DNA from: Trichoplax sp. H2
Taxonomy: Eukaryota
Length of the DNA: 64,000 bases
NCBI GenBank assembly: GCA_003344405.1
Contig: NOWV01000131.1
Coordinates: 124,001-188,000, forward strand
Direction of reading: 5' to 3'
The translations under genes and the position numbers were made by a program. Each line of letters starts with the position of its first letter. Position 1 is the stretch's first letter. Positions 2,440 through 52,758 of this stretch are shown in pieces. The notes under the pieces are model-generated. The model did not search any database. It saw only the letters and a program-made list of their open reading frames with translations, and was not told where the DNA came from.

Positions 2440-5400
2440 CGATGTAAAACATCTTTTTTATTGTTGCGTAATTCCTTACGTTGCATTTACCATAATGATA
2501 GCGATTGTTCTACTACTAGATAATATTCTTGAAACATTGCAAGGCTACTATCTAATTCATTGATAATAATATAGAGCACTACACACTATACACGTATACT
2601 GTACTAATTGACTGGATCATTTTTGACAATATTAGTTGTAAGATTCAACATTAAATCATTCATCATTGTCATCGATATTAAGAGCAAGTCATATAGGGAA
2701 GTTATTGTCTTGGATATCAACTAATGCTAAGATCTATGGCCATGGAGAATTACTAGGAGTTACATCAATATAATGAACATTAATCTTGAGTGTTAACAAG
2801 CGATAAGACGAGAGCACGATTGCAATTGCTCAATTACTTATATCGTAACTTTTATCTATCTATTCGTATATTATTGTACAATAATCTTGACGCCAATCAT
2901 CATCAATTAGGTAAGAGATTTATGCGTGTGTTCAAACTTTATATATCAACGTAATAACTACAGTTATAGCCATTAATTATTTTTAATTGGAAATGATTGG
3001 TATTGTTAGTTCACGCTTGTTCTAACGTTTCGATGAATTTCATCATCGTTAATAACATTAAACGTAAAGCGACTTTCGATGGTAAATGATTCAGGGAATA
3101 TGGGCTATTTTCTTACGATGGGCTATTATAGTTATAATAGGAAATAAAGCTTTTTGATACGATAGTAATTAACATCTTGGCATACCGCTGTTTTGAGTTA
3201 TGTGAAAGATTTTATATACAGAATTAAAGTAATGTAAAATATTATTTACGTGCTTTCGAAGTAGTACTATACCGTTTACTTTATAAATTATCCGAATAGG
3301 CGTTACGAGTGATAGTAAATTACTTGTACACTACCTGCAATTTTACTCATGTTTACGTTTTAAATAAATGTCCTGGTAAATTATTCGAGAAATAATTCCC
3401 TTGACCTATCAAAGAGGGTGTACCAATCGAGAGTCAAATAGAAGTAATAATTATTTCTATTCAGTTATACTAGTTACTCAGAAATTTTCAATAGAATTGT
3501 TGAAAAAGTCTTCCTATTAGATTGAGATGCTCTCATAATAAACCATCTATCTACTGAATTTTCTTATCAAACTTTTAGATGGGAAGTGAATACTGCTACA
3601 TCATACGAGGAAGATATAGATATATAGGTTAAAAACAGGCAACGTATTGACCAGTGTCAGGCCCATTGCCTATTGGTTTTGGTGAAAGCCATTGCTTGAC
3701 TATTCTAGTATTTGAAAACATGCAACACTTATACTTGTCATTACATGACGGTTAATCTTCTACAATACCTTACTTATCTTGATTTGCTTAACCTTACGAG
3801 CGGACTATCGGCTAGAAATGATAATATATCCGACATATTTAAGAAATGTTCCATCCACAGCTCATTCAGTGCACTATTTAAAGACATATACAATACTTCA
3901 TATCTTATTTTAATACAATCCTGACGCCAATAATAATATCTCCTCACAAAGTGGAAATTATGATCACGTCATGGATGAAAACTGAGTATGCTAAATTTTG
4001 TTTCATTCTCAAGATCAATTTCGGAGAAAGTAATAGAATTTTCGTAACGTGATTGAAATTCATATTGTCTTTTCCTTAGCAGTTGTTGGTTTCTAATGTA
4101 ATTTATATAAATATAAGAAAGAAACGAAGTAGGTGATTTTAAAATAGAAGCTATATGAATAGGATTATTGACATTTTGTAGTCATTTTTAATATGTGAGT
4201 CAAGATGTCGGTGCATACGAAGGACTGCTCATACAAAGGGGCATAGTAAATCATTCTTCCCTTCTCTAATTTCCTGAATGTATCAAAATCAAAGAAATCC
4301 ATACTCAAATCATTTCATTAGATTTGTTTGATAGTTAGATGATGCTGAAATGTTGTACCCTTGCAGCATCATTGTTTGAGTTGGTTTTCGTTCATTTACT
4401 TCTCTTCGTTTTAACGTAATTTTTGATAATGATAAAAAATAATATCAAATAAAGTCAGTACTTCTGATTACAGCAAGTACGATTTGATGTTTATATAACA
4501 GGCAGTTAGTTTTTTATAACAATACTAATTGTTCATACTGGATGATTTTCTAAAGCCTCAATTATTAAACGCCGAAATATACTGCTAATACGAATTCTAT
4601 TTTGATGATGTTTAAATATTATAAAATACACAATAGTTACTATATACTGTATCAACGGATAAATGAGATTTTTGAATAATACTTACTCAGAGTTTAAATT
4701 TTTCAACGTAAAGGATAGGTAATATTATCTATTTATATTCTCTGATAGGGCGCTCAATCCTTTAGCTCCTTTAACTATTAGATTTTTAAATTATCCTATT
4801 GTCAGAGTTAAAAGTTATTCAGTCTTTTTATGTAACAATTGCATGAATAGATATAATTATAGACTTTTGGGATAGTGCATCCTAACTCTCAAAATAGCTA
4901 ATATTTAATTTGCGCTATTTTATAAAAGTTACATATTGGGGCTATTCTGATTCAAGATTTATGAAATATATTTTTTGGTCTGTTAAGTGTTACATCAAAA
5001 ACTTACAATTAAAATCTACGATTAGTTCATAAAATTTAGAACCATGAGTATAAAAGTGTTTCTCCACTTTTTAAGTATTTCTTATTATTGTAATTTAGTG
5101 AGAAAAATAGACTCTTTTAATATAAAAAATTCAGCATTCGATTTTGGAATATATTAGGGTATCTATATACGGTATAAGGATCTGCTTTTATCGAAGTTTA
5201 TCAGCATTACCTTATTTTGAGTAACATTCAAATCTGTTAACTAATAGTAATCATATACTACAAGTATATAATGTAATGTTTCGAAAATAATGGAAGAATA
5301 AGTATTTAAAGTGATCTTTAATTTATCTTCGACTTAATTACGTATCCGCTCATGCATTTTTTAATTAATTATATTTAATCATAGTGAGATTGGGCCCTTT

Positions 5401-5603
5401 TAAATTGAACTTTGAACTGTTATTTCGATTGAATCATTACCAAATTCTATTATCTATATAATATTGTTTGTTAAATTAGAAATATCGATTCGGTATAAAA
5501 TCAAAAAATAAGTTCTTTATGATCATAAAATTGCTGTTGAATGACTGCTTGTATTATGAGCAAATTACTTCATTTTTTAATTTTTTATTCTAGGTGAAAA
5601 AGT

Positions 5604-8600
5604 ATGCTATCCGTGAATGCTCATTATAATGTAAGAGATATTATCGATATTAAACCGTTACCAACGCCGTCATGTATTGGCGAAAAGGTATCAGTGAGAA
5701 GTTCAACAACTTACATTAGCCCTAGTTTGAAAAAAGATCAATGGAAAAATAACCATGAAAGAAGAACTAAACAAGTCACTGAGTGTGGCTATCGATCTGT
5801 GCCTCACCGTCCTTATAAGCCCGTTGGCGAAATGTGCCTTGATGAAAAGCAGCTAATACTATCTGCTTTAGGCCAAAGCAATAATCATGTAAGTTTAAAA
5901 AGAATTATTAATTATCGTCGATACATTATTCGTGTAAGCTACAATGATGTTACAATCGAATAACTTAACTACTTTAGGCTGATCAAGATGGAGGAATAAA
6001 TACACCAAGCGATAAAGGCTTATATCACGATATCGCTAGAGGCGATAAGGTTAGTTTCTAAAATTCTATTGTATAAAAATATCTTTTTGGATAAATTTAT
6101 TTGTTTCGCTACCCTTTTTTTGTTATGCTTTATTTTAGTCGAAAGTGACAATAAGCAGTTATAAAAAGTTGTTAAAAGTTCAAGATTTAGTCAATAAAGA
6201 TAGGTAAGTGCAGTTTTTTAATAAGTTCCTCTTTAATATGTAGTTTTAAGTATCTAAACTGTTTTCGATTCATATTCGATTACAATGCAGCTTGTAGTCG
6301 TACGCATTTTATCTTAATTCGTTGATAGAATATTATACTTAATTACTAGTGATCGAATTTCTAAAATTAAGCTTGGGCATGGATTATTTCAAATTATTAA
6401 AGACGAAGAAAAAGCTAAGGTAAACCCATTTACAATATCAATAAAAGTAACAAAATTTTCGGCTACAAAATTAACTTTAGTCAATATTATGAAATTTTAT
6501 ACGACGGTATTATTTTAACATCATGATTTGAATTTTCGATTGATATCAACGTGATTGCTGTACGATATTGTAATCCGTGTTCAGGCACAAAAGGCAGCCA
6601 CTGAAGAGATAGAAGCAAAAGCTAGAGCCAACAAGCAGTGGAAACCATCGAAGGGAGAGTCTGATTCGTCGTCAGACGATGATGATGACATAGGTTTCCG
6701 TGAGGTTGTCCAAAATTATTTGATAAGGTATGGCAAAATTTAGTAAGCCTCTAGAATATCTATCTATTTACAGATGTCAGAGAGATCCCTACAGTAAATG
6801 ATACTGCCCAATTCAAGTATCCCTTTAGAAAAATAAGTGTAAAAGTGCTCACGTTGGGAGAGTTAATCTTTAACTGATTTATTATTTTATCCGACTTGTG
6901 CTTTATGACATAGGTATCAAACACCTTCGTTACAGAAAGATAATCTGGAATTGCCATCTACTACGTCAAGTCCGATTGGAGTAAAATTTACACCAGTTAG
7001 TGCTCGCCAAACTAATAATGGCGAGTATTCGCGAATAAGGTAGGCTGTAGCGGAAATTCTTTGTGCTGTAACTGTCATAATTCTTAATGTCATGGTACTA
7101 TACAATACTAGAAATGTAAGAAATACTAGTTAGAAAAGATAATAGTTGCACTTTTTTAATTTGGAAAATCACAATGGAATGATGATTATTTGTATTAATA
7201 ATTAATTCTTAATGATTAGGCGCTAGCTTTAGTTGTGGATCGGATCTACGAGTATCACTGTAATTTACTACTACATTTATCGTATGGTATTTAAACTGAT
7301 ATTACTTATATCCATAGACATATGATCATGTGATACCAGTAGTTATTCATTTTTTATGGTTTCATATATACATCATAAATTAACTTGATATTAGCTGTAA
7401 TTATTCATGTGCAGTACGCTGTTTTCGTTTACTAGTAAATTTTATCGTATTGTAAATAACATACCCTAGTTATTATAGTTTAGAAATCAAAAATGATGAT
7501 TTTTACATACGAGTGAAATCAATTAGAACCTTAACAAGAACTGAAATTCTAACTGTTACTTAATCTTGTCGTAATTATAGCTTGGATGGATCGCCATATG
7601 GCGATACGAAGGAACATAGTGGCCGTTCAATAGAATCGCCACATCCGAACTTTAGGTTACATCGCAAGCATTACAGATCGCGAAAAAGCTCTTCAATTCA
7701 AGTTCGTCCTTTTTCTCCATATTATTCCAGTGTTGCCAGTTCACCGATCCAATCAGACAGGTATAATTTAGTATTTACAGCTGATGGAGAGTGATCGTAT
7801 TTATTTACTATCAAATCTCTAATCCATATGATAACAATATTTTCAATACTATAGAGAACATATCTTTCGTCAACTATGTGTTATTCAATGGCTTCTGGAA
7901 GCTACAGCATTAGAATTGGGTTATATTATGGTTCCTATTTCTGCATGTTGGAAATTGAAGTAAGTTTAAGAATGAAAATTTTTTCATAAATGATGTTTTA
8001 TATTAAAGTTGAATCTTCATTTTAAGTGAATCAAATGACGGAAAAATGTCGCGTAAACGCCAAGAAAAGGATAATAAGAAAGCTTTGGATAATAAATGGG
8101 ATGCATTATGCAATAATCCACATCAGTTATCTAATATTGTAAGATTTCGTATTCATCGAGATAGCAGTTTATATCTGAAATAATGTACTTGTATATGTAC
8201 ATTTCAATATTCTAAGTTAATGTTAGGAAATGTAGTAATTATCCTGTAAGCGAAATCAGTAGCTATACACATTTTTTTTGATATTGTCATATTCACTTTA
8301 AATGTTTAGATCAAAATGCCTGATAAACCAAAAACTGCACGAGGGCAGAAAATTCTAAAGGAAGGCTGGCTAGTCAAGCGTAGTCGTAACAGAAACGCTA
8401 TCAATAAAGATGCCAATTATCGCTCTCGATACGTCCGTTTAACGAAGGATTACCTGATATATTATCTTAACGAGAAATTGGTTAGAATCACTTTATTAAA
8501 ATATAATATATCAATCCCATTTTAAGTATAGAAAGGCGTCAAACTGATGTAAATAAATTTTTTACTTTATTTATCATCGATTTTACTAAATTTATGCCTC

Positions 8601-11600
8601 TTGAATTTCTCTATGTCATCAACTAGAATAACTACAAAGATTGTATTCATCTAAAATATGCTACTATTGTTGAATCGGTAAAAGATCATACATTTGAAAA
8701 GAAGAAAAATGTTTTTCAAGTTAGTAGAAATCTCTTTTATTTTTCTGATACCCTGTTGATATTTTTACAATTTCTTGTGCTCTCAGATGTGATGCATTGG
8801 TAATCATTTTCAGAAACGTAGTATTTGGTGCAACAGTTAGATATTTTCTGTAGTATTATTATATGAATAATGCCGTGATTGTATGTTTTAATCATGTCGG
8901 CTGGATTTAATAGAGTATGAAATAAATGAATAGTGTAGTTTCAATTAGTTTTCAGGAATAGTACATATGGAAATATAAGCTAGATAACAGTGTATAGCGG
9001 GAAGTAAATCTCTCCTTTTACTTTTCTTTCGGCGACACTGCAAATACAGATTAAGCTACTGTATATACTGTACTGTGCAGTATAGTGATATTATGCCTTT
9101 GCTAGCTATATAAAAGTATGTATAAAAATGGCAGTGGTAGAAAACTTTTTTTTGGAATAACAATTGGATTGAATGAAACTAACGACTGAGCTTATTTATA
9201 TATTCAAAATATAGATTGGCCAGAAAAATGATTTTTTATATCTACTAGCTCAAAGCGATAGTCATCGTGAAGATTGGCTGAATGCAATACGAAATGGTAA
9301 AGTAAAAAATTTCTTACCTGTTATGTAATTCATGAAGGCTAAAGTCCAAGAGTCATAAAAATCATTATAAAACGTTTTCAATTTGAAATTAACATTATGG
9401 TATTTTCTATTAGCTTGCATGAGACTAAGAAATAAAATGGATAAAAAATTTCACCCTGGGGCTTTAACTAAAGGTGAACGATGGTCTTGCTGCTCTCATC
9501 TGTCTAGTGCTGAAGGTTGCGAAGATGCTTTTGACTATACACTAGGTATGAAATGATTTACAGTTCATGTAAATGATCCACTTTAGGATGTCTCATTTCA
9601 TGAAATGGGTCTGGAGTTAAATTTGCGAGCGTAATCTATACAGTGTCCATTAGTTATATACAGTTTAAATATATTTATTACAGACTAATATAAAGGACTT
9701 TTTATTTCTAAATAGATACTAAGGTTATTAAAGAAGGTTGGCTTACCAAAAGAAGTCGCAATCGCAAAGATCCAAAAAAAGAAGCCAATTATCGTGATCG
9801 CTATGTTAGAATGACTACAGAGTGCCTGTCTTACTATATTACGAATAAAGCGGTAAGTATTGTTCGAGAACTAATAAGGACATAATTTTTATTGAGTAAG
9901 TTTTAGTTCGTTTACAGTCAATCGTAGCATGGAGTTTATCGTCTTACGATATTACCATAATATAAAAAGTAGTAAAAGATTGAATCAATTAATAGAACTG
10001 ATGATCATCATTTTGTTCTTATTGATCTCTTGAACTATATTTAGAACGCTGTACCTAAAGATTCCATGAAATTAAAAGATGTGACAATTGTAGAAGCAGT
10101 TACCGATGGCACATTTGGTGAACGAAAATACTTCTTTCAGGTCTTTAAGTTTTTTTTACCTAATTGTAGTTATCATATATTACGAAGTCTGCATAATAGA
10201 AAGGTGCTGATCTTGATTGCTTTATCCAGTAGAAAAAATAGCATTATAATGCGCTAACATGTAACAATAGAAATTTTGCAAATCTCCATAGTCGGAACGA
10301 TAAATTTTTATGATTGCTACAGGTTGGATCAAAAGGAGATCTTCTTTATGCTCATGCTATGAACCCAACTGATCGTGACGAATGGGTATTAGCATTACGG
10401 CAGTGTAAGTTTGCTTTTCTATACGGCTAGATATTAAATGAATTTAAGCAGTTTATTTCCTTATTCTAACTGACTGAATTAGGTCAAAAAATAAGTTGTA
10501 CCCTCAAGTATGTGAAATGTGCGGTTATAAATTTGACCTCTTTTACATCACTATGTAGGCTGTCAGAGATTAAAACTAAATATGGATCGGCGCTATCATC
10601 CTGGTGCCTATACTGATAAATGGAGCTGTTGCCAAGCGGTTGATCTTTCGCAAAATGGTTGCCAACATGCATTTGATTATTCTACTGGTGAGTACAACGT
10701 AAACGATGTTTTAACTATTTGATTCCTAAAAGTTGACAGTAATAACTGAATGACCTTAGAATGATCATAAATACTACTGCCCTATGGTAAGAGATTTGTT
10801 CGAGTTACGATTATTTTTAATTTTTAATATCGTAATACGATATACAGCATCAATTGCTCATGTCATGAAGTAAAGAAGCGTAGTATTCGCTCATTTTAAA
10901 TGTACTATTGCTATGTATGGTAGATCTTACAGAAACATTGTATTTTAATTGAACTAATTCTAAGTGATGCAAACTATATAGAATTGTCAACCGTAGTTAA
11001 GAAAGGCTGGGTAGTAAAGCGGAGTCGTGGACGTGGAAAGAGTAAAAATGCTGCAAATTATAGGGAACGATTTGTTGTCTTGACAGAAGAATTTTTATCA
11101 TATTATGGAAATGAAGCTGGAGTAAGTATTCTTTTAATTCATAAAAGCAATGTAGTAATTAACTAAGGGATGGATAAAATTGTTATTGCTGTATGCATAT
11201 TTAAATGCATTAATAACTAAGTACTTGTGCACTCTGAGCTGGTATGATATCTTATGTAAAAGTATTAATTTGTTTTGTTTCTAGGAATATAAAGATTGCA
11301 TTAACATGAAGCATGTCTCTATTGTGGAACCTGTTAATGATGGAACGTTGGAGAGAGATTTCGTCTTTCAGGTTATTTCTTTTTCATTCGTATAATTGCA
11401 TTGATATTAGAAACATTAGAGTTGGTTAAAAGTTTCGTTACCAGCAAATATTGAGAGGTTTGATTCACGGAATTTTCATTTGCTATTATAATTGTAATCT
11501 GAATCTTACAAACTAAAGGAGTTTGATAGTAATTTTAAGAAATCAGTCTTCTTTAAGGATGGAACAGGAATAGAACAATACGTGTACTGGACTAGAATAA

Positions 11601-14600
11601 TTTATCTATAGATATTAAATATAGATATACCCGTGCGTTAAAAATATATATTTTGGGGACTGCATACACTTATACCTTTACTTTTGTCATGACATAGGTT
11701 GGGAGTAAAGGAGATATTTTATATATATGTGCTCCTAATGAAGAAGAACGAGAAGATTGGATTGTAGCTTTAAGATTTGGTAAGTAACGATGATATGAAA
11801 TGTCAGACATTACAAGGTATCTAGAAAGTTAGTCAAAATTGTTCAAATTTTAGACAGATAAGAATCATTTAAAGTGATTTTCACGGGTGATGTCATACAA
11901 TATTGATAAGGTCACTACCATATCCTGAAACCTAACAATAAAAGACTGTATGATCTGCAGTATGCATACTTTCTTAGAGTGATGCTTAAAAATATGGAGG
12001 TATTGCACAGAAAACTTTTCTTCCGTATCAGAGTTGATGTGACCATAAATGAGCAAATTACCAAGAAATACGTTATTATTTTGCTACAATATGCAGTGCT
12101 ACAAAACCTCAAGAAGGAGTTATTTATTTTTTAGGCAGAAAGTATATAGTTGGTAATAGTTAGAATTACAGGGTTGAATGATATAAGAGTACTAATTGAA
12201 GATCGAAGAAGGCGCTATTTGTTTATTACATCTCATAAAAAAATCAGTAGATCTTACATCGATACTATTGTATCTCACGGAAGATTTTAATTTATGCTGT
12301 ATTTATTACTTAAATAGTAACTCAACAACTGCATAACAAGATGGAAGATAGATTTCATCCTGGAGGTTTTACTAGGAGTAAATGGACATGTTGTGATTAT
12401 CCTTCCCTCGATGAAGATGGGTGCCAGAGAGCGTTTGATTATAGTAAAGGTAATTTAAAAGCCGCTATTGTAATAAATTTACATTATTCCAGGGTCAAAT
12501 ATACTTCAAAGTGCAAATTGAATAATCTTTTTTGAAATTAGTGCTAGCATTTAAACTGTACATTGGTATAGGTAATAAAAAATTTGTAGGCTTACTTATT
12601 CTTAAATAAATCTGAAACTTGCAATTAAGCGACTATATTCTATCACTAGGTGTTGCATACAGTCCTAAAACAGAAGAAGATTACTACCCTATGCCAACTG
12701 ATGATAGTTTATACGCTTTTAATGGTAATATTAGTCCATTTATGGTTGGTAGCTCAACGACACCAAAAGCTGAGACAGCTATTAATATTAAAAGCTCACG
12801 TCGAGCGTCTTTAGCAAAATCGAGCGATATTAACCAAATTACAAGACGTGTATCAATGGCTATGCCCCCAACTATGGAAGGTATTGTAACTGGCAGGAGA
12901 TCATCAATGGCTGTTCAAGCAGAAGCTATACCTCTGAGCAGCAATAAGAGACATTCAACAGCTGCTTCAAAACCGACTGATTTTAGTCAAATAACTAGGC
13001 GAATATCATTAGCCGTAGGTAAAATCCCTACTCAAGTTCCACTGACCCCTGGTGGACAAAATGAAAATGCACCAAAAAGCAAATGGCCAATTGCTGCCTT
13101 ACGAAGTATACAAAAATTTATGCAATATACACAACATCGTCGAATTAGAACATTAGGAAACGTAAGTTTATAATCATTATACTGAATATTGTGCTATTTC
13201 AATGCAATCTTAATTAAAAATGTCCGCATAAGCTAACAATATTTATTTCAACTTTTACTGGCTGTATGATATCTGATAATCGTAAGGCTACAACTCCATT
13301 TATACTTTTTATGTGCTTTTTATTTACAAGGCTGAGGATGTTAACAAGGACAAAATTAGCGACGATGCTAAAATTAGGGCATGGATTGAAGAGTTTGGTG
13401 GCATAGAAGAAGATGACCGCCAGCGAAAGAAAAAATTACGACCGCAAAGGTGATTATTATAGCTATATTTTTAAAGTAAATGATGACATGGATACTATAC
13501 TAGCTGGGGTACCGCTTTATTACATTTTGTGAAGCTTTAAAAACATTTGATTTGATATCAAGATTAATTATTGTTAACAATAATAGCCAGTCATAGCTGC
13601 TTGATAGGTAAATCGAATACACTTAAATTCTCAGTCTTCAATTTATATTGAATATGAATAAAATTATCTCTTACGTCTAGCGCACCTGTTAAAAATACAC
13701 CGGGTACTGCAGGTATTGAGAGATACCAAGATTTAGCGTCAAGAATGCGACAGAAGTTTATTGATGTTGCCAAAGAAAACGAAGAGTTACTACACGATCA
13801 GTTAGATAGGATAGAAATGTAAGTACTACGTAATTCGTACAGATTAATTTTGAATAATATTCACTTTTTACTCTATGTGTCATTGTCAGCCTGTTGTCGA
13901 CGATGATATTTCGATTGATTGTTACCCACTTATTTAAATAGATGACGAAATGATTATAAAAATGATTTATGTTTACCTAAAGTTTGTTCTTTACTTATAT
14001 TAGGAAAAGATCTCAAAAATGCGAGCTTCGCTTCTTTGCTATTGAGCCCAAGACTTATGTTCATCGCGATTTAGGAAAAATGCGACATAAGATAAAAAAA
14101 ATCGAAATACGCCAAGCTAACAAATCAGTCCATCGACCTTGGTAATTGTCATTTTTATTTAGCTAACAATCACAATGCTTTACCTACTACGTGATAATAT
14201 ACAGTTGTTCCATTTAAGCTTTCAACCAACTTATCCACTTTTTTCCTATTACTTCATGATAGGTATATTAATCTAGTCAACACTTTACCGGAAAGTATTC
14301 GGGAAGATCGTCAATGTTCTCAAACGTTAGAAAGGATTTCATCCCACGCTAAGGTAACTAATAATTACAAATAAAAGTATTCTACGATACGACCAAGGTA
14401 GACTAGGCTGTTTTAGCTACTTGTTGTGAAAATAGTATATTTTAATCGTTTAAATAACAAATGATATTGCATTATGTATTATTATAGATTGATGGAATAG
14501 TTCCGAGCTCTGTCCAGTTAATTCGAGTACTGTCTGGGTTACGTCATTGGGAAATTTGCTCTCCAGATATTAGTGCAGCTATAGAAGTAAGTGATGCAGG

Positions 14601-14850
14601 ATTATTTATGTACTGGTATATTTCTTATTTTAGAGATGTCAGAGTAACTGCTATAAAAATTTTATTTCTAGCTTGAATAATAGTAGTATAATAGTAAATT
14701 AATTTTTTACCTAATCTTATACAGTTTGTAAGAGAAAAGATAGTAGAAATGCCTGATTACGAATATGAAGAATGGTTACGATCCATTTTACCTATGAAAA
14801 AGCCCAGAGCTGAATCTGATCCAACAAGTACGAACAAAAGTGACTCGTAG
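5604..14850 (+). CDS. CCDC60: CCDC60-like protein with three internal PH-Btk (Tec-homology) modules; about 28 coding exons
   Basis: Phase-compatible exon chain starting at ATG 5604. N-terminal exons: 5594-5888, 5978-6049, 6139-6203, 6350-6419 (SKIKLGHGLFQIIKDE), 6585-6728, ~6914-7040, 7581-7760 (VRPFSPYYS), 7855-7959 (IFRQLCVIQWLLEA...ISACW), 8027-8138. Then 12 PH/Btk exons in 8310-12449 and exons 12650-13161, 13331-13449, 13681-13818, 14004-14141, 14263-14353 (WYINLVNTLPE), 14488-14586 (LSGLRHWEICSPDISAAIE) and 14725-14850 (FVREKIVEMPDYEYEEWL, TAG). The flanking motifs match CCDC60 as I recall it. Confidence 0.75.
8310..12449 (+). repeat. Three tandemly duplicated 4-exon PH + Btk zinc-motif modules
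   Basis: Module 1: 8310-8480, 8627-8719, 9215-9296, 9414-9545. Module 2: 9716-9852, ~10045-10140, 10323-10404, 10559-10687. Module 3: 10982-11121, 11285-11371, 11698-11779, 12318-12449. Each encodes K(E/K)GWxxKRSR...ANYRxR, ...FQ, ...R(E/D)xWxxA(I/L)R and (F/Y)HPG...WxCC...GC..AFDY, with identical internal intron positions. Confidence 0.9.
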
Positions 14851-31913: not shown

Positions 31914-34900
31914 ATGAAATCCAAGAAAGCCGATCATCTTAAAAGAAAGGTAATGTTACATTTTATAGCCAATGTTGAGATAAATGGGTGGAACCATCAT
32001 TAGCTACAATTTAGCTTGGTTTAGCAGCTTGCTGTACTTTGAATTAGCAAACATTGCAAAATAGTGAATGTAGATTGGCACTTTGATTGGCCCAAAATTA
32101 TACCTTGTATGACGTTCTTATCATCATACAGGTGTAGCCATATAGGTAGAATGATTGCTACGTATTTTATAGAGGCATACATCAACTACATTATCGGTTA
32201 AAAAAAATTTCTTATTTCTGGCAATACACACGCATATACAGTATACTGTACAACACATACGAGGACGGGCATACGACTCGTGTCCAATTTTGGTTTCAAA
32301 TTGTACGGGACTATGCACGATACACTTCTCGTAGGCATAATAGGCAATAGATATACCTAGAACAGGTTATATTGAATTACTGATACAGCTTATTGGATAA
32401 TATATATATATATGTATATATTTTAATTGACCATATAGGAAAATGCTTCACAGTCCGATCATGCTGATACTGATGAAGGCAAAGTTGTCAAAAAGAAGAA
32501 AAAAAGTTTATATGCACCTCTGACTCGAGATGAATTATTTACCATCAAAGAAACTGAAAGTCTCTATCGATCTGGATTATTTCGTATGCAAATTGATGAA
32601 TTATTAAAAGAAGTTAAATTAAAGAAGAAAAGAAATAAAAAATTAGATCTTTTTCTTCATGCTTTACGTAACTGCTTAATCAATATACCCGATGACAATC
32701 AACAGGAACTTGAATTTGATAGTTTATCCTGCAAACCTGATGGCATTCAGATACCTCTTCATTTAAAAGATGTGCAGACTATCAAGGGCAAATTTATATT
32801 TAAAACCCCGACTGTCATTGCTGTTGTTGGCAGCTATATGATTGGTACCATTACCAAGCCAATAGTCAACGTGGATGTTACTGTAGAGATACCGCAGGTC
32901 TCAATCGCTATACTTATAATTAAAATTTAAAAATTGATTAGTGTACAAAATTAAATTTATTAACACAAGATATACTCGTAAAGTAATAATTTGTGTTTTG
33001 TGTATTTCAGGAATGTTTAAATTCTAGAGATCACATCAATGCTAGATATTATTACCGACGTGCACTTTACTTAGCACATTTGGCTTATCATTTAAATCAG
33101 AGTGATATCTGTCAAGAAGTCCAGTATTCAACAATGAATGGAGACCCACTTAAGCCAATCTTAGTTATAAAAGCAGCACCGGAACGATTTAATCGCTACT
33201 TTACCATTCGTTTATACCCTTGCATTAATCAGTCAGCGTTCAAATTAAGTCAATTAAAGCCAACTAAAGATAATATAAGATATGAATTTTATCCAACGAT
33301 AGAGAGTAAATTAAATGAAGAAACTCAACGGTTAGGCCCGCCAACACCTCATTACAATCATGGTATATTGGTAGATATGAGCTTCGGCCGCCACCTGAGG
33401 GAGATTTATCAAGCAACGCGACAAAGTCAATCTTTAATTGATGCCATTACCTTAATCAAGATATGGCTATACCAACGTGAATTTAATAAAGGGATAAACG
33501 GATTGAATGGATTTCTTGCTTCAATGTTTTTGATTTACTTATTAAAGAAAAAGAAACTCAACTTGCAAATGAGCTCTTATCAGATTTTAAGGATCTTCCT
33601 TATACAATTAGGTATCATAATACGATTGTACGATAAAATAAGATGGTATTAATTATTACACAGATAGAAATCAATAAGATTCGAAGAAAAATTTACATAC
33701 AAGCATTAACATTTTTTATCACCTGGATTTTTTTGTTGGAATAGCGTCATCCGACTGGTCTACCAATGGAATAACACTTGCGGAACAGGACAATTCCAAT
33801 ATTGTAATTTCAATATTCAGATTATGAGCTCCTTTGTATTTTTCAAATATCTATATAACAGTCCGCTCTAAATTTTTTATAGCCATCTACTGCAGAATTT
33901 TCTACAGTTTTTGAAGTGGTTTTTATCGACTCTTCTGGATACTTAAATTTAGCCGCCAACTTAACGAAAATTTCATACGATGAAGTTAGTAACAATTATA
34001 ATCCTGCAATAGTAATGCTCTTAATTATTACAGTTCGGTATTATAAAAGATTTATATTCATCTTTACAAATTGTACGCTCTTAAATTATTATATTCTGAT
34101 TTGTTACAGTTACGTCATGCAGCCTCCTCGTCACTGCGACATCTCGATAGCAGCTCTAGCGATGTTTTCTCTGACCTTTTCGTGAAAAAAGTACCATACT
34201 TTACAAAATATGATCACTATATTACGTAAGTCCTTGACAGCTGCTATCATTAAAAATGCATGTAAAAAAAGTATTCAAAATAAGCTATTATAAATTAAAT
34301 TGATGATATTTTTCGGATTAATGGTAATAAACATGATTTCTGTCTTTATTGGCTAACCATTGAATCTGTACGTTGAATTTAAACCAGGTTAAAACAGTTA
34401 CCACAAATAGAAAAAGCTAATATTGGACAAGAAGTGTTAGAGTATCTTATCAGTAGATGCAATCATTTACGACCAGTCATGCTACGCTGGTTAATGGTTA
34501 TCCTTCAAAAAGGTTTAAATAAAAGAGTTAAATTGATTTCTGTTATGCCTGAAGATATTTCAAAGGTAAAATTTCGAATTTTAAAATACTATCTAATATA
34601 TTTTATTCACTATGAAATGCTTTTTATTTGCTTATAGTGGCCAATTACTAAGATGCCGCCTGCAGAAAGTGAAACTGTAACCATCGGCTTATCACTTGAT
34701 ACAGAACAATATTCTTCCATTGTAGAAATGGGTCCATCGGCTGAAGACTCACAGGTAGATATGACTTATAGATTAAATTATATTTATTATTTCTATTATT
34801 TAGGTTCTTGATACCATTCGTTATACTATATAATAAACTTCGATTAGGCTGCGGAATTATTTAGAAAATTTTGGGGTGAGAAGTCAGAATTACGAAGGTT

Positions 34901-38624: not shown

Positions 38625-41600
38625 TTACTGCATGAGATGTGGCTGGGTAAACGGTACATTCGAATTAAATTGATTTGCTGCTTGTGGATACATGTTATAT
38701 TGAGGTTGTGCGTTCATTTGAGGTAGTGGCTGTTGCTGGGTTGTGCCTCCTTGAGACGTAGAATATACCCCTTTTGGATCGATAGGTTGCTGTTGGTGAT
38801 AGTATTGTGATTGTTGCACTGGAAATTCATTAGACGTCCCAGATGACTGATTTCTACCGTAATGAATATGGTTTCGTATAAAAATGTTAAAAGCACTAAT
38901 ATCTTTTGCATTGACAAGAACTTGTATCTTTGCAGCAAAGCTAAACAGTATACTTACACTGGATTGTACATGTTCTAGAATAAAAAAATTGTATAAAAGT
39001 ATAAGTACTGAGAAAAGGAATTAAAAAGGAAAATTTGTTGCTTTTCTAAGTGTCGTATATACAGTACCTGTTGCGATTGAGTAGTTTGCGGCTGTTGATT
39101 CAATCCCTGCATCATTGGGTGCTGTATAATTTCCAATTTTACCCAAATCAAAAATATTTCAGTAATATAGATAGTAGTCTACTTTTGATTTAGAAGTTTC
39201 ACACCTATAATTAAAAATGACTTTGAAAATTTACCTGTTCCGGCGAAAAATTTTGTGGACCTGTAGGCTGTTGTTGGTAGCCAAGAGTATTAGGTTGCTG
39301 CGGAATCTACCAAGATACATATAGTATAATTATCCGTAAAGAATATGCTTGTAGGCCTTTTCTGTTATCGTAGAGGTTAGTGAATTTAAATACGCCAAAA
39401 ATAAGTTCAGTAAGGATAACATACCATATGCTGTTGCGGTACAGGCTGCTGAGGTACAGGTTGCTGAGGTACTTGTTGTTGAGGTACTTGTTGTTGAGGT
39501 ACTGGATTGTTGAGGTATGGATTGCTGAGGTAAAGGTTGCTGAGGTACAAGTTGCTGAGGTGAAGATTGTTGAGGTAGAGGTTGCTGGATTGGTGCCATC
39601 CTTTGATTATCTTGCAAACGGTTGGATTGGAAGTGCTGCTGTGACATCTCTGTAAATATAAATGTAAACATTGCATTAACGAAATGGAAATTTTTCTCAA
39701 ATTAAAATAAGGACAAGAGAAAAGTACCAGGTTGTAAGCCTGCTGCAGAATAAGCTGCGTAGATAGAACTATATCGTGGCCGCTCTTGCATCAATCTATT
39801 AATATGAAAAGTAATATCAAAATTTTTTAGTTATTCGAATAACATCGAAAAAGCAATAGTTCATTTAGGTCAAGTCTTACTTTTGATAAAGAGCAAGAGT
39901 TTCTTCAAATTGATTTTTTAAAGTATTTACTTCTTGATCTTTACTATTGGTAATAATAATATAAAAATAGTGTAAATATTTAATTGAAACAAAAATAAGT
40001 TACTGTACAAGGTATAAAGACTCACGTTTCCAGGCGCTCTAATTTGTTAGTCATTTGATACTTCATTCGATTACACGTATCTATAAAATGATATGATTGC
40101 GCTTGTATTAAGTAAAAATGAGTATTTACCTATCTAACGGAAACATTTTAAGTTAAATTCCTTCAACCTTCTAAGTCAATAAGTTCTTGAGTATCTGCAT
40201 TTACAGTTATATCAGCCTTTCCAAATATCTCAAGTGTGATATCTATTTTTTCCTAAAACGATTGCAGACATTAAAAATACGTTTTTGTGGGTGATAATTA
40301 CTTTTAACTATAAATAGAAAATAACTTCTGCAAATAAATGTGATCTCAGCTTATGATTTTATTTCATACTTCGTCAATTTGAACTTCTTTATATTCGTCC
40401 ATTGACGGTTCTATTAGTAAAATTCAATATATTGTACTTAAAGTAGTAATAATACTATATCACAATTTTAAATGTTGTCGCTAGATACAAACGTTTTGCC
40501 TCTCCAAGACCATTTTGTACTTCAGATTCCTCTACTACTTCCGTCTCTAATTCCTGATGTACCTCATACTTGGGTACTTAACACCACAGGCAAAAAGTTA
40601 GTATCGTAAAAGGATGTCATAAAATTATATGTTGTTATAGAGATGAGACCGAGTAAAATTGTTAATAAACCTGGTTCATTGAGATCGGAAGTAACAAAAT
40701 TTGACGGAAATAGTCCAGACCCATGTGGAGTCTCTCCCTTCCACCAGTTGGGGTCGCTATTATATCAACGTATGAAACAGAATTATTGCATGAAGTAACC
40801 TAATCTCATACATTCAAATTGCTAGTAATAGACTTCATTGTGCTATACTACCTATCATCAATGATAGAAATGATGTCACCAGCTTTAAAAGTTAACTCGT
40901 TATCTTCAGCGGCCTCGAAATCGTATAATGCAAGAACTTTACGTCGTTCAAGTTCCTATAATATAGATATACATCCAACCCATTAATTTCTTATGGCCAT
41001 TAGTAACATAGTAATGCACGCGCATTAGATCTATATTTGATACTGAAAAATAATACATGGGCTACAACTTACCTTCCTAAGTGACTTAGGAGAAGGTGGT
41101 TTAACTACAGGGTAAATACTTGATGTCGAAGTCTAATTTAGAATAGTTAAAATAGAAGTTAGGTAAGAAACTAAATGTCATATTATAAATTCATTTTACC
41201 TGAGAATAAGTTGCAGGAGTACTAGTATTAACCGTCGTAGAATGAGAAGAATGGGATGCACCAGTTTTATCTGCATCTCTTAAAGACATTTCAATTGCTG
41301 ATATAATCGATTGAAAGAATAGATATCTTTTAATGACAAATTAAATATATTTTACTAAGATGTAGAACTAAATATAGTTGAAATCTACTATCGCATGTAA
41401 CGTGGTGTCATTTGTACCTCTAGCAAGATCTTCGTCCTCTTGTAGTGCAACTCTATCGCTACTAGGTTGATTCTTATTTGATGTAGAAGTGAAGTTCGGC
41501 GATTCAGTAGGATTGGAAGAGGCTGCTCCCCCAGGTACAATTTCAGGTGTAAAAGCAGGAAACTCAACACCTTCATTCTTTAAGCTATTGTAAAGTGTTG

Positions 41601-47514: not shown

Positions 47515-49927
47515 ATGGGTATGTAGCCGACTCCTCTCCATGCTTTTATATTGCTCTAATATCACATCCATCGGTTACTTTTTCAGACATTTACATAACT
47601 TTTATGCTCGCTGTAGTCACTTTGAATCATCTTTTCTACTTAGTTTAATTTTTCCAACAGTCTTTTTGTAAATTTTTTCCGTTTTATTGATTAGCATTTG
47701 GTAAGAGTGTGCTCTTCGTTGCTATACTACCATTTCACTGAAACTATCCTGTACAATTATATGAATCACCCAGGACATGCTTTTTTGTACAATTTGCTAT
47801 GGCTATGAACAACATGCTCATAGTAATAATCGCGGAAGAGGGATTAGAGATACGTTCAGTTGACTACTCATGATCGTTTTTAGCAAGTAGCTCATTCTCC
47901 ATCACATTACAGTAAAGTGGCCTTATTCCCGTAATGATTCGTATAGAGTACAGGATTAGTTGGCGATACGACTAGTCGAGATTGGATTAGCTCGCTAATT
48001 CGTAGTATATGGAGACTTGGATGTCTATCTCTCTTGCGGTCGAACTTTGCCACTACAGTACTGCATAATTGACAGTAGTTGCAGTTTCTTTAAACAGGAT
48101 GCACGTTGATCATATATTTTGATGATAGTAAATGATGGTGTCCGATATGATGGATAAGTTTGACCTTGTGCATGTCTTAGTAATATTGAGTAAAGAGCAA
48201 ATCTATTTCTGCAGACTTGAGTGTTTTAGCAATCCGTTACACGCTAATTTAATGTCATATTCAAATACTGATGACGATAGGGTTATTAATTTTTATTGTA
48301 TGATTAACGCAGGTATTTCTCGTGACTCTTGGCATAAAAGGCGAAGTACCAGTGGGCGAAAAGCCCCTCTTCGTAAGAAGAGAAAGTTCGAATTGGGCCG
48401 ACAGCCTGCTATGACGAAGGTTTGTCGATCTGTTATTTAATTATCAACTCTTGATAAAAGCAAATAATAATCGATAGAACTACTCTGGTATTAAATTATC
48501 CTTCGTAGTATTGGGTATAAAATTTCTACTATATGCTTAACCGTAACTCCCTACGATTTACGACGCTAGTTGGCTAGAGTATTTTTTAGCATGCCTTGAC
48601 TATGCTATTTTTTAGCTTCCTGCGGTTGCAGTGTAAAAATATCATGCATATTGGCCTTATTAGCAGAAGCAATCGACGCAGTACTAATTCTGAAATGATA
48701 AAATACTGGTATTTTACCTTACAATTTAAATAGTTGAAAATAATAAATGCTACTTAATTTTTACGTGAAGTGAAGTGTTACACCAAATTGTTAGAATCAA
48801 GGGTAGGGAATACTGTAGAAAGTAATTTGATTGAGGTATCTATCTCTCGCAAGGCGTAATTTTTAGAGTATTTTCATGCTTCACGGATCACTTGTCGTTA
48901 TTATAAGTTTCAGTCTTGATTGTGCTTTTTTTTTACAAAGCTATTTCGTCCTTTTTAATTGTCATACTACTTTTATTCTTATTAGATGGGAGCTAAGCGT
49001 ATTCATACCGTACGAACTCGCGGTGGAAATTACAAATACCGCGCTCTACGTTTAGAAACTGGAAATTATTCATGGGCTTCGGAAGGTAAGTACTTACTAA
49101 AAGGACAGTCTTATTTAAATTCCTTGTCTTTTACTGAGCATAGAAAGACCAGTATATCTGACAAGATTGAAATTGTTAATGTAGCCATCAGCCGCAAAAG
49201 CCGTATATTAGATGTTGTCTACAATGCTAGCAACAACGAACTTGTTCGTACAAAGACTTTGGTTAAGAATTGCATTGTTCAAATCGACGCTACTCCTTTT
49301 AAGCAATGGTATTTATTAATGCTTACTTACGTACTATGTCATATATTTTATCCTAGATAATAAGTAGGCTGTCAATAGAGTGAATTTTAACTCGTCTAAG
49401 ATAATAATGATGCGCCCTACAAGATAATTTCAAGTACTAACTACCTTTATTCGACTTAACAGGTATGAGAGCCACTACAATATCCCTATCGTACGTAAAA
49501 AGTCGAAACAACAGCAGGTATTACTACGATGCTACTTCAATTTGTATACGCGTACATGTAACATTTAAGAACCCGCCATTCATATGCCTATGTAGACTAC
49601 GGAAGAAACTGAAGAGATAAGACGATCTAAGAGGGTAGAAAAGAAATTGGAAGCCAGAAAACGTTTTGCCAAGATCGCCTCTGCCTTAGAAGAACAATTC
49701 GGTACAGGACGTATTTATGGTAAGACATGTAGTACGATCAAATTATGAAATAATGTACACAAGTTAATACTGCCATTACTTGATAACATAACATTAATCC
49801 AATACAACCTATTGTAGCTTGTGTTGCGTCCAGACCTGGCCAGTGCGGTCGTTGCGATGGTTATATACTGGAAGGAAAAGAATTGGAATTCTATTTAAAG
49901 AAAATCAGATCGAAGAAAACAAAGTAA
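47515..49927 (+). CDS. RPS8: 40S ribosomal protein S8 (eS8)
   Basis: ATGG|GT at 47515-47518, then exons 48313-48419, 48986-49085, 49185-49308, 49463-49517, 49596-49719 and 49818-49927. Protein: [16 protein letters not shown]...[14 protein letters not shown]...[32 protein letters not shown]. Confidence 0.97.
47909..48060 (+). ncRNA. Candidate structured intronic RNA (H/ACA-like 3' domain) in RPS8 intron 1
   Basis: ACAGTA (H-like), then stem AGTGGC/GCCACT, an internal loop, stem CCGTAA/TTGCGG and internal hairpins; ACA lies 15 nt from the upper stem. Confidence 0.3.
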
Positions 49928-52115: not shown

Positions 52116-52758
52116 TAGTGGTCAAACGATTATTACGTAGCAAGCTGGAGTTGATTAGCAAACCATTACCTACTGTATATTGTAGTGGATTAATAATCGC
52201 TAGTCGTATCGACTGCAAGACCAGAACAAGTTTTGCAGGCCGTAGAAATAGGCAAGGAATTAGCTATAGTAACAGATAGGAGAGCGTTGGCTTGAAACGA
52301 CACTTACTAATAATTTGCTACTGAATCCAGTACTAGTGTTATACGGAAATACTTATATATCTTCAAAGTAGGGTAGTAGGTGTGCAGATAATTAAGAATC
52401 ATTATTACGATTAGGTTGAGGCATTTATCCACCATTATGCTCATCACAAGAATTTATGTTTTATTTGTCTAATAAAAGAGAGTAGATCGGTATAACATCG
52501 ACATATTACGATTCAAGAATGCAAAATCATTGCTATCAATATACGACATAATCATCAAGTGAAAGTGTTAGAATTCAAAAGAATATTAAACAGCTTTGAA
52601 AATGGAAGGAAACCGTAATGATAACCCTAACTTTTTATTTACATATTATTTTCACTAAAAATTGTAGTACTGTACCAGTTTACAAATAGCTGGACTTTTA
52701 TCCTAGATTTGCTATAGTAAGTATGTAATCTAAGGCGATAATATACTATCAAACAAGA

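What the first reader, a model, noticed from the sequence alone, without database searches (positions are those of the whole stretch)
5604..14850. CCDC60-like protein with three Tec/Btk-type PH-zinc modules spliced into its middle
Seen in sequence: CCDC60-type blocks lie on both sides of 12 exons that encode three PH + Btk-motif units. The junctions are in frame. Donor 8138 (phase 0) joins acceptor 8310 (ATC AAA ATG CCT), and donor 12449 (phase 1) joins acceptor 12650, so one ORF runs from 5604 to 14850. Established: PH-Btk normally occurs as a single unit in Tec kinases and GAP1-family RasGAPs, and CCDC60 as I know it has no PH domain. Inference: this is an apparently undescribed architecture, a kinase-less ciliary-type protein with a trivalent phosphoinositide-binding cassette.
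Basis: partly seen in the sequence, partly recalled or inferred. Interest (0 to 1): 0.85.

Follow-up and report, generated by a model that had tools for sequence, protein, structure and literature searches.

The report
Placozoan CCDC60 carrying three PH-Btk modules
This Trichoplax gene makes one messenger RNA for a CCDC60-family protein that has three tandem Tec-kinase-type lipid-binding (PH plus Btk zinc motif) modules inserted in its middle, a combination found here in no other animal's CCDC60, although the predicted protein is already in public databases.

Summary
A 28-exon, 3744-nt ORF (5604-14850, 27 GT..AG introns) encodes 1247 aa. The order is CCDC60/DUF4698 N-block, three PH+Btk-motif modules (12 exons, 8310-12449), an RRxS-rich exon, and the DUF4698 C-block.

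RNA-derived contigs from three studies carry the splices. Two contigs (3976 and 4666 nt) run from the CCDC60 N exons through the cassette into the C exons, with lengths that match the model to the base. It is therefore a fused transcript, not a nested gene.

The protein is identical to RDD39526.1 (Trichoplax sp. H2, named CCDC60). It differs at 6 of 1247 residues from XP_002117053.1 (T. adhaerens). The model is therefore public, but no paper naming these accessions was found.

None of 11 full-length-like CCDC60 relatives from other phyla carries PH or BTK. The three modules are each other's closest kin and are Tec-type, not RasGAP-type. They keep the zinc ligands and the positions aligned to BTK K12, R28 and K53.

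Kinase-less tandem PH-Btk proteins also exist in gastropods, apparently amplified independently. Lipid binding and a ciliary role are inferred, not shown. Interest is moderate.

The parts
2878..2910 (+). 3' end of a non-coding 5' exon spliced to 5594. The exon extends further upstream; its start was not mapped.
   Evidence: Loose ends of 223-255 nt lie before 5591 in X4, X5 and X7. Their last 30 nt match window 2878-2907 exactly. TAG|GT follows at 2908-2912. An in-frame TGA at 5595-5597 precedes ATG 5604.
5604..8138 (+). CCDC60/DUF4698 N-block, 9 coding exons (5604-5888, 5978-6049, 6139-6203, 6350-6419, 6585-6727, 6914-7039, 7581-7760, 7855-7959, 8027-8138); protein residues 1-386.
   Evidence: Exon model. 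P0001 residues 9-384 align with the N parts of 11 CCDC60 relatives (alignment). DUF4698 is matched in 2 stretches.
8310..9545 (+). PH-Btk module 1 (exons 8310-8480, 8627-8719, 9215-9296, 9414-9545); residues 387-545. It starts in phase 0 with 'IKMPDKPK', which holds ATG 8316.
   Evidence: PH hit on exon 8310 and BTK hit at 20.7 bits on exon 9414. The pattern H..CC..C is present.
9716..10687 (+). PH-Btk module 2 (exons 9716-9852, 10045-10140, 10323-10404, 10559-10687); residues 546-693; phase 1 to 1.
   Evidence: BTK hit 3.7e-08 on the exon. RNA joints 9542>9713, 9851>10044 and 10137>10320.
10982..12449 (+). PH-Btk module 3 (exons 10982-11121, 11285-11371, 11698-11779, 12318-12449); residues 694-840; phase 1 to 1.
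   Evidence: BTK hit 1.9e-06. Residues 695-834 align to the Tec PH-TH structure 2lul at 4.7e-13. RNA joint 11778>12317.
12650..13161 (+). Central Ser/Thr/Pro-rich exon (residues 842-1011) with four RRxS[LM]A sites at residues 891, 906, 923 and 957. It is probably CCDC60's own variable middle.
   Evidence: all 4 RRxS sites of the protein lie here, and 0 of 2000 shuffles give 4 or more within 70 aa. All 11 relatives have an R[RK]xS site just after their N-block. RNA joints lie on both sides.
13331..14850 (+). CCDC60/DUF4698 C-block, 6 exons (13331-13449, 13681-13818, 14004-14141, 14263-14353, 14488-14586, 14725-14850, including the stop); residues 1012-1247.
   Evidence: Exon model. DUF4698 best stretch is residues 1055-1226 on profile positions 308-478. 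The motif CSPDISAAIEF is invariant in 12 of 12 sequences. All 5 internal joints are seen in X4, X5 and X7.

Best explanation
This is one real Trichoplax gene, the placozoan CCDC60 orthologue. A 12-exon cassette has been inserted between the conserved N-block and the conserved RRxS site of the variable middle. The cassette encodes three tandem Tec-type PH-TH modules (a PH domain with a Btk zinc motif).

The cassette arose by tandem triplication of one 4-exon unit within the placozoan line. Modules 2 and 3 are 1-1 phase-symmetric. All three modules keep the four zinc ligands and the basic pocket residues that recognise the 3-phosphate in BTK/TEC.

The likeliest working model (inferred, not shown) is a kinase-less scaffold. 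Three PH-TH modules would bind PI(3,4,5)P3 or soluble inositol polyphosphates with avidity. That would tie the CCDC60 part, which in vertebrates is expressed with cilia genes, to 3-phosphoinositide-rich membrane. The adjacent cluster of four basophilic-kinase-type RRxS sites is a likely point of regulation.

Confidence by step: single fused mRNA about 0.9; placozoan-specific insertion among known CCDC60s about 0.8; PIP3/IP binding about 0.55; ciliary context about 0.3. The overall figure of 0.55 is for the whole statement, including lipid binding.
For: Shown:
- A 28-exon open frame with all 27 introns GT..AG.
- Spliced contigs in X4 (on record as RNA), X5 and X7, from 3 studies. The joints 12449/12650 and 13161/13331 are listed. 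Single contigs of 3976 nt (X5) and 4666 nt (X7) span the N-block, cassette and C-block with lengths exact to the base.
- 15 printed plus 12 unprinted joints make 27, the number of model introns. This leaves no room for an alternative joint if every intron is among them (inference).
- The same protein is modelled in two genome projects.
- Pfam on P0001 gives DUF4698 3.2e-59, PH 4.6e-50 (3 stretches) and BTK 1.1e-14, with no other kind of domain.
- 11 of 11 full-length-like CCDC60 relatives have PF15769 only. They align on both sides of the insert.
- The modules are 45-52% identical to one another and at most about 40% identical to any of the 150 listed hits.
- In a quick ML tree of 107 Zn-motif-bearing modules, the three Trichoplax modules form one clade (SH-aLRT 100). 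They sit in the half (support 93) that holds 17 of 17 Tec-labelled and 0 of 16 RasGAP-labelled rows.
- The best solved relatives are Tec and BTK PH-TH.
- An AF2 model of the cassette has mean pLDDT 83.5. Foldseek matches BTK PH-TH chains at TM(target) 0.73-0.78.
- K, R and K stand at the positions aligned to BTK K12, R28 and K53 in module 3 and in the same columns of modules 1 and 2. Passages of PMC13648279 name these residues as recognising the 3' phosphate.
- H..CC..C is present in all three modules.
- 0 of the 6 amino-acid differences between the two Trichoplax proteins fall in the cassette or the linker, which make up half of the protein. The one cassette variant seen in the runs is synonymous.
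- Exon fragments 82-88% identical occur in unnamed contigs (P0014, P0018, P0028).
Against: - The printed joint table does not show the 8138/8310 row. That join rests on length arithmetic.
- Short-read contigs cannot phase distant junctions and drop rare isoforms. A cassette-skipping form (8138>13331) or an internal-promoter form cannot be excluded.
- X5 and X7 are only guessed to be RNA by their records, although their contigs are spliced.
- There is no protein-level evidence.
- No lipid-binding data exist. PH pocket residues alone do not fix specificity.
- Module 1's Btk motif scores below Pfam's cut-off when its exon is scanned alone (20.7 against 24 bits). The whole-protein scan counts 2, not 3, BTK stretches.
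- Module 2's Btk region has pLDDT below 50 in the model. A pTM of 0.45 says nothing about how the modules pack.
- The cassette alone is 1363 nt (phase 0 to 1), so a clean exon-shuffling insertion does not explain the frames. The boundary must have been remodelled, or the RRxS exon came in with the cassette.
- The ciliary link is expression-based and from vertebrates only.
Confidence: 0.55

Rival explanations
1. The fusion is real, but the three PH-TH modules are not 3-phosphoinositide sensors. They could act as protein-protein interaction or oligomerisation modules, bind a different ligand, or simply be a tolerated lineage-specific insert in a disordered linker with little function.
For: - Many PH domains bind lipids weakly or not at all (general knowledge, recalled).
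- pTM is 0.45 and module 2's Btk region has low confidence.
- Module 1's Btk motif is weak.
- The insert lies at the start of a segment without confident structure in the Actinia CCDC60 model (residues 431-581, pLDDT below 50). Inserts are easily tolerated in such a place.
Against: - The residues at BTK K12, R28 and K53 and the Zn ligands are kept in all three modules, although the modules are only 45-52% identical to one another.
- No amino-acid change falls in the cassette between the two Trichoplax species, against 6 elsewhere.
- Exon fragments 82-88% identical occur in unnamed contigs.
- This pattern fits selection on a ligand pocket.
Confidence: 0.3
2. There are two products, not one. The PH-Btk exons would be a nested gene starting at ATG 8316, while CCDC60 normally splices 8138 to 13331. 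The long form would be a minor read-through or an assembly chimera.
For: - Exon 8310 holds an ATG at its third codon, followed by a Tec-like start of a PH domain.
- The 8310-13161 block is phase 0 to 0, so skipping it stays in frame.
- Contigs cannot exclude rare isoforms, and the 8138/8310 row was not printed.
Against: - Contigs in X5 and X7 bridge 7959 to 9413 and 7959 to 12648 with exactly the model's length.
- The joints 12449/12650 and 13161/13331 tie the cassette to the CCDC60 C exons in three studies.
- No 8138>13331 joint appears among the 15 printed. The total number of joints (27) equals the number of model introns.
- The RRxS exon behind the cassette matches a motif conserved in 11 of 11 CCDC60 relatives. 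The cassette therefore sits inside CCDC60 coding sequence, not in an intron bounded by intact neighbours.
Confidence: 0.06
3. The cassette is ancient. A free-standing three-module PH-Btk gene, as in gastropods, was captured whole by CCDC60, rather than one module being triplicated in placozoans.
For: - Free-standing proteins with three full modules exist (P0009, 502 aa; P0012, Pomacea, 486 aa).
- Module 1 begins like the N-terminus of a protein (Met at 8316).
- P0009 is the best hit of the whole cassette (4.9e-39, 3 stretches).
Against: - In the tree, the Trichoplax modules group with each other (SH-aLRT 100). The gastropod modules group module by module among themselves in a different starred clade.
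- Modules 2 and 3 share the same exon lengths and phases.
- Concerted evolution could mimic this pattern. The tree is a quick search without bootstraps, because the careful run did not finish.
Confidence: 0.12

Closest known systems
CCDC60 family (Pfam PF15769, DUF4698), e.g. Actinia tenebrosa LOC116295108, sea-urchin, crinoid, hemichordate and shark CCDC60
   Same: The N-block and C-block are colinear, at 27-38% identity. The motif CSPDISAAIEF is invariant. An R[RK]xS site follows the N-block. The variable middle has no confident structure.
   Different: 455 residues of three PH-TH modules lie between the N-block and the RRxS site. There are four RRxS sites instead of one to three. The protein is 1247 aa, against 637-841 aa for the relatives.
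PH-TH module of Tec-family kinases (BTK, TEC; PDB 1btk, 1b55, 4y94, 2lul)
   Same: The PH fold has an integral Btk zinc motif. The positions aligned to BTK K12, R28 and K53 are kept, as is H..CC..C. The modules fall on the Tec side of the module tree.
   Different: There is no proline-rich linker, SH3, SH2 or kinase domain. There are three copies in tandem. The host protein is unrelated.
GAP1-family RasGAPs (C2-RasGAP-PH-Btk, e.g. hit P0025)
   Same: They carry a PH+Btk unit outside a kinase.
   Different: They have a single unit. It falls on the other side of the tree (16 of 16 GAP-labelled rows). P0001 has no RasGAP or C2 domain.
Kinase-less tandem PH-Btk proteins of gastropods (Pomacea PVD34872.1, Batillaria KAG5698865.1, Aplysia XP_035826329.1, Nucella KAL8558468.1) and the unnamed P0009
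   Same: They hold two or three full PH+Btk modules in a row with nothing else recognisable.
   Different: They are free-standing proteins of 457-690 aa without a CCDC60 part. Their modules are not sister to the Trichoplax modules. They are all uncharacterised.
Multi-PH PIP3 binders such as centaurin-alpha-1/ADAP1 (PDB 3lju, 3feh)
   Same: They have tandem PH domains and bind the PIP3 head group. They are among the Foldseek hits.
   Different: The similarity covers the PH fold only (TM 0.22-0.29). They have no Btk motif. This is an analogy, not kinship.

Membership tests
CCDC60 / DUF4698 (PF15769) | Profile match above Pfam's gathering score | tested here: met
   201.5 bits against a cut-off of 28.6, E 3.2e-59, in 2 stretches on P0001. 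The window protein differs from P0001 at 6 of 1247 residues, none of them in the cassette.
CCDC60 / DUF4698 (PF15769) | N-block and C-block colinear with orthologues, including the invariant C-terminal CSPDISAAIEF motif | tested here: met
   BLASTP against 11 relatives aligns residues 9-384 and 1023-1241. The alignment shows the motif invariant in 12 of 12 sequences.
CCDC60 / DUF4698 (PF15769) | Association with cilia or flagella | not testable with these tools
   Only expression-based statements for human CCDC60 were read (passages of PMC8485144 and PMC12991005). No data on Trichoplax were seen.
PH-TH (PH + Btk zinc motif) module | PH domain profile match, three times | tested here: met
   PF00169 at 4.6e-50 with 3 stretches. 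A custom module HMM finds 397-545, 545-693 and 694-840, each covering the profile from position 2 to 148 or 149 of 149.
PH-TH (PH + Btk zinc motif) module | Btk motif profile match and the zinc ligands H, C, C, C in each module | tested here: met
   H..CC..C is present in all three modules. Pfam BTK scores 33.6 and 28.1 bits for modules 2 and 3. Module 1 scores 20.7 bits, below the 24-bit cut-off, when its exon is scanned alone. The whole protein gives 1.1e-14 with 2 stretches.
PH-TH (PH + Btk zinc motif) module | Basic residues that recognise the 3-phosphate (BTK K12, R28, K53) | tested here: met
   The alignment of module 3 to BTK chains and the three-module alignment show K, R and K in all three. 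The role of these residues is taken from passages of PMC13648279. Binding itself was not tested.
Tec-family tyrosine kinase | SH3-SH2-kinase unit behind the PH-TH | tested here: not met
   P0001 gives no SH3, SH2 or kinase hit at E up to 0.01. It is not a Tec kinase.
GAP1-family RasGAP | C2 and RasGAP domains before the PH-Btk | tested here: not met
   P0001 gives no C2 or RasGAP hit. The modules lie apart from 16 of 16 GAP-labelled modules in the tree.

The most novel reading that the evidence does not exclude
Placozoans and gastropods have independently built kinase-less arrays of three Tec-type PH-TH modules. This would be an undescribed class of multivalent, switch-like PIP3 or inositol-polyphosphate readers. 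In Trichoplax the array is wired into CCDC60, next to a conserved cluster of PKA-type RRxS sites. PI3K and cyclic-nucleotide signals would then converge on a cilium-associated scaffold in an animal that moves and feeds by ciliary gliding.
Probability: 0.2. Interest if true: 0.6.

Novelty: new variant of a known kind. Interest (0 to 1): 0.4.

Why it matters
CCDC60 is a conserved animal protein with no established molecular function. A natural version fused to three well-understood lipid-sensing modules hints that it acts at or near a membrane, which gives a concrete hypothesis to test.

The cassette and its free-standing gastropod counterparts also show that the Tec PH-TH module has been reused outside kinases and RasGAPs as a tandem array. 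This bears on how PH-TH dimerisation and avidity on PIP3 membranes work.

The case is also a clean, transcript-supported example of lineage-specific domain insertion into a disordered linker in an early-branching animal. It is not a new kind of system, and the sequence itself is already public.

Tried and rejected
- The genome search 'own' for other Btk-motif genes: no genome is held for this window. Trichoplax paralogues such as a Tec kinase or a GAP1 could therefore not be compared, and the donor gene remains unknown.
- ESM Atlas search with P0001: best score 0.79, generic PH clusters only, no structure held. It was uninformative.
- Earlier findings of this scan: nothing by place, words or sequence.
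- First module tree: two PH-only proteins without a Btk motif (P0033; P0156, labelled Amoebophrya) grouped with the Trichoplax modules. After reading them I dropped every module lacking H..CC..C, 7 of 114 rows, and rebuilt the tree.
- The 'careful' tree search did not finish in 288 s, so the quick tree (SH-aLRT only, no bootstraps) is what is reported.
- AF2 model of Actinia CCDC60 from a 12-sequence alignment: mean pLDDT 50.5. It is used only for the statement that residues 431-581 lack confident structure. It is no proof of disorder.
- Run X6 gave unspliced contigs and no joints. I treat it as DNA-like and as no evidence either way.
- Low-depth contigs lie over introns in X4 (for example 7010-7405 and 11345-11725). 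These are taken as pre-mRNA or DNA carry-over and were not pursued.
- Literature searches for 'Btk motif'+Trichoplax (1 paper, seen only in the search listing and judged unrelated from its title and abstract), 'Tec family'+Trichoplax+'PH domain' (0 papers), and the accession numbers (0 papers). Supplements are closed, so tables in placozoan genome or single-cell papers that might list this gene could not be seen.
- Window-wide repeat search: nothing touches the gene.
Full report
**What is there.** The window is AT-rich eukaryotic DNA of about 32% GC. Reading the + strand between 5604 and 14850 gives a gene of 28 coding exons. All 27 introns are GT..AG. The gene makes one open frame of 3744 nt including the stop, or 1247 aa.

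Exon 8027-8138 ends in phase 0 and joins 8310 (ATC AAA ATG CCT). Exon 12318-12449 ends in phase 1 and joins 12650.
- The block 8310-13161 is 1875 nt and runs from phase 0 to phase 0. The alternative join 8138>13331 would therefore also be in frame.
- An in-frame TGA at 5595 precedes the ATG.
- A non-coding 5' exon ending at 2910 is spliced onto 5594.

**Identity.**
- The translation of exon 1 finds one protein among 148 candidates, P0001, which is TRIADDRAFT_61094 of Trichoplax adhaerens (1247 aa).
- The window's spliced protein differs from P0001 at 6 of 1247 residues.
- It is identical (0 differences) to P0162, which is RDD39526.1, 'Coiled-coil domain-containing protein 60 [Trichoplax sp. 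H2]'.
- The fused model therefore already stands in two public annotations and in UniProt (B3SA09, 'PH domain-containing protein').
- A full-text search for four accession terms found 0 papers.

**Domains.**
- Exon by exon, Pfam finds the Btk motif three times (20.7, 33.6 and 28.1 bits, against a cut-off of 24). It also finds a PH start and weak DUF4698 matches in two C-terminal exons.
- On the whole protein, DUF4698 (PF15769, the CCDC60 family) scores 3.2e-59 in two stretches, PH scores 4.6e-50 in three stretches, and BTK scores 1.1e-14 in two stretches. There is no kinase, SH2, SH3, C2 or RasGAP domain.
- The cassette is residues 387-841. Its modules are 387-545, 546-693 and 694-840. They are 45-52% identical pairwise.
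- Each module is coded by four exons with the same phase pattern. Modules 2 and 3 are 444 and 441 nt and are phase 1-1 symmetric. Module 1 starts in phase 0 with eleven extra residues that include a Met.

**Is it one transcript?** Of 21 runs listed I laid four, from four studies.
- X4 is on record as RNA. X5 and X7 are guessed to be RNA. All three gave contigs that skip introns at GT..AG.
- X6 gave only unspliced contigs and no joints.
- Fifteen joints are printed, each seen in X4, X5 and X7. Twelve more joints were not printed. 15+12 = 27 is the number of model introns.
However, X5 contig 9 (3976 nt) has 457 nt between its pieces at 7853-7959 and 9413-9542, where the model gives 458 minus 1 shared base. 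X5 contig 9 and X7 contig 18 (4666 nt, starting in the 5' UTR exon and running past 15200) both have 1473 nt between 7959 and 12648, where the model gives 1475 minus 2.
- I take this as strong evidence for a spliced mRNA that joins the CCDC60 N exons, the twelve PH-Btk exons, the RRxS exon and the CCDC60 C exons.
- Limits: short-read contigs do not phase distant junctions, they drop rare isoforms, and there is no protein evidence.

**Where the insert sits.**
- BLASTP of P0001 against 11 CCDC60 relatives aligns residues 9-384 with their N parts and 1023-1241 with their C parts. The relatives are a sea anemone, three sea urchins, two crinoids, a hemichordate, two sharks and two unnamed records. 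Each relative has 120-190 unaligned residues in between (alignment).
- All 11 relatives have an R[RK]xS site 15-45 residues after the N-block.
- In Trichoplax all four RRxS sites of the protein (RRASLA, RRVSMA, RRSSMA, RRISLA, at residues 891-960) lie in exon 12650-13161, just behind the cassette. 0 of 2000 shuffles of the protein put four or more within 70 residues.
- I therefore read that exon as CCDC60's own variable middle and the insert as the twelve cassette exons only.
- Against a simple exon-shuffling event, the cassette alone is 1363 nt (phase 0 to 1). A boundary must have been remodelled, or the RRxS exon came in with the cassette.
- An AF2 model of the Actinia protein is poor (mean pLDDT 50.5). 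It has no confident structure at 431-581, starting where the Trichoplax insert maps.

**Is the architecture found elsewhere?**
- Searching the C-block (residues 1000-1247) among proteins of 685-2183 aa gave 7 non-self hits. Searching among proteins of 30-684 aa gave 7 more. All 14 carry PF15769 only.
- Three of the 14 are short fragments at 61-65% identity that cannot speak to architecture.
- Both searches depend on shared 5-residue words, so distant fused forms could be missed.

**Relatives of the cassette.**
- A full HMMER scan of 1.84 billion representatives with the 455-aa cassette gave 266 hits at E up to 0.001, 48 at up to 1e-10 and 1 at up to 1e-30.
- The best hit is P0009, an unnamed 502-aa protein (4.9e-39) with three full PH+Btk modules and nothing else.
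- Next come gastropod proteins with two or three modules and no other Pfam domain: Batillaria (457 aa), Aplysia (690 aa), Pomacea (486 aa, three modules) and Nucella (515 aa).
- PH-Btk is therefore not always a single unit.
- I built a quick maximum-likelihood tree of 107 modules that bear the zinc pattern. Seven of 114 rows were dropped for lacking it. Support is SH-aLRT only, because the careful search did not finish.
  - The three Trichoplax modules form a clade (100).
  - That clade lies in the half (93) that holds all 17 Tec-labelled and all 9 multi-module rows.
  - All 16 RasGAP-labelled rows lie in the other half.
  - The gastropod modules pair with each other, module by module, in a separate starred clade (the first version is).
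- This points to independent tandem amplification of a Tec-type module in placozoans and in gastropods. Concerted evolution is the caveat.

**Are the modules likely functional?**
- The best solved relatives by sequence are Tec PH-TH (2lul, 4.7e-13) and BTK PH-TH.
- The cassette model (mean pLDDT 83.5, pTM 0.45) matches BTK PH-TH chains at TM(target) 0.73-0.78. Module 2's Btk region is below pLDDT 50.
- In the BTK alignment of module 3, and in the same columns of modules 1 and 2, K, R and K stand at BTK K12, R28 and K53. Passages of PMC13648279 say these residues recognise the 3' phosphate of PIP3, and that the TH zinc finger is an integral part of the PH fold.
- S14, N24 and Y39 are also kept. 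Their roles are recalled, not taken from a call.
- H..CC..C is present in all three modules.
- None of the six amino-acid differences between the two Trichoplax proteins falls in the cassette or the RRxS exon, which together make up half of the protein. By chance this would happen about 1.6% of the time (my arithmetic).
- The only cassette variant seen in the runs is synonymous.
- Exon-sized fragments 82-88% identical occur in unnamed contigs.

**Mechanism (inferred).** I propose a kinase-less CCDC60 scaffold whose three PH-TH modules bind PIP3 or soluble inositol polyphosphates with avidity, placing CCDC60 at 3-phosphoinositide-rich membrane. The neighbouring RRxS cluster is a candidate regulatory site. 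R-R-x-S-hydrophobic is the recalled consensus of PKA-type kinases. The ciliary context rests on statements that human CCDC60 is expressed in ciliated tissues and cells (passages of PMC8485144 and PMC12991005). Its molecular function is unknown.

**Verdict.**
- The combination is unique among the CCDC60s found here.
- The sequence is already public, and tandem PH-Btk arrays exist elsewhere.
- It is a new variant of known kinds (CCDC60 and PH-TH), of moderate interest.

Noticed in passing
proteins P0009, P0010, P0012, P0019, P0161 (hits): These are kinase-less proteins made only of two or three full PH+Btk-motif modules. They occur in the gastropods Pomacea, Batillaria, Aplysia and Nucella and in one unnamed record. 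All are uncharacterised, and their modules correspond one-to-one among the gastropods.
   Followed up: partly
window 12650-13161 (residues 891-960) and orthologues P0002-P0008, P0163-P0166: An R[RK]xS site directly behind the N-block is shared by all 11 CCDC60 relatives examined. In Trichoplax it is multiplied to four RRxS[LM]A sites. It is a possible conserved phosphorylation site of the family.
   Followed up: partly
window 2878-2910 and 5594: The gene has a non-coding 5' exon about 2.7 kb upstream of the ATG exon. The exon's 5' end and the promoter were not mapped.
   Followed up: partly
window 61584-63116 (-), with 61079-61498 (-): A 510-aa open frame matches the carboxylesterase family (PF00135, 5.7e-125). 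The next frame downstream on that strand ends in a hydrophobic stretch. This suggests a membrane-anchored cholinesterase- or neuroligin-like gene.
   Followed up: partly
window 32439-33652 (+); 48986-49360 (+): These are exons of an Nrap (nucleolar protein 6-like) gene (PF03813 3.6e-36, PF17403 4.9e-14) and of ribosomal protein S8e (PF01201 5.2e-22).
   Followed up: partly
window 50826-52121 (-): A 431-aa uninterrupted open frame has no Pfam match at E up to 0.001. This is unusually long for an exon in this intron-rich region.
   Followed up: no
window 39417-39592: A 15-nt tandem repeat (GTTGCTGAGGTACAG-like) lies inside Gln/Pro-rich open frames on the minus strand.
   Followed up: no
window 9022-9146 (intron of module 1): Small indels separate the window from runs X4 and X6, including a 6-nt deletion at 9089 and a GC insertion at 9088. 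This is an intronic polymorphism between strains.
   Followed up: no
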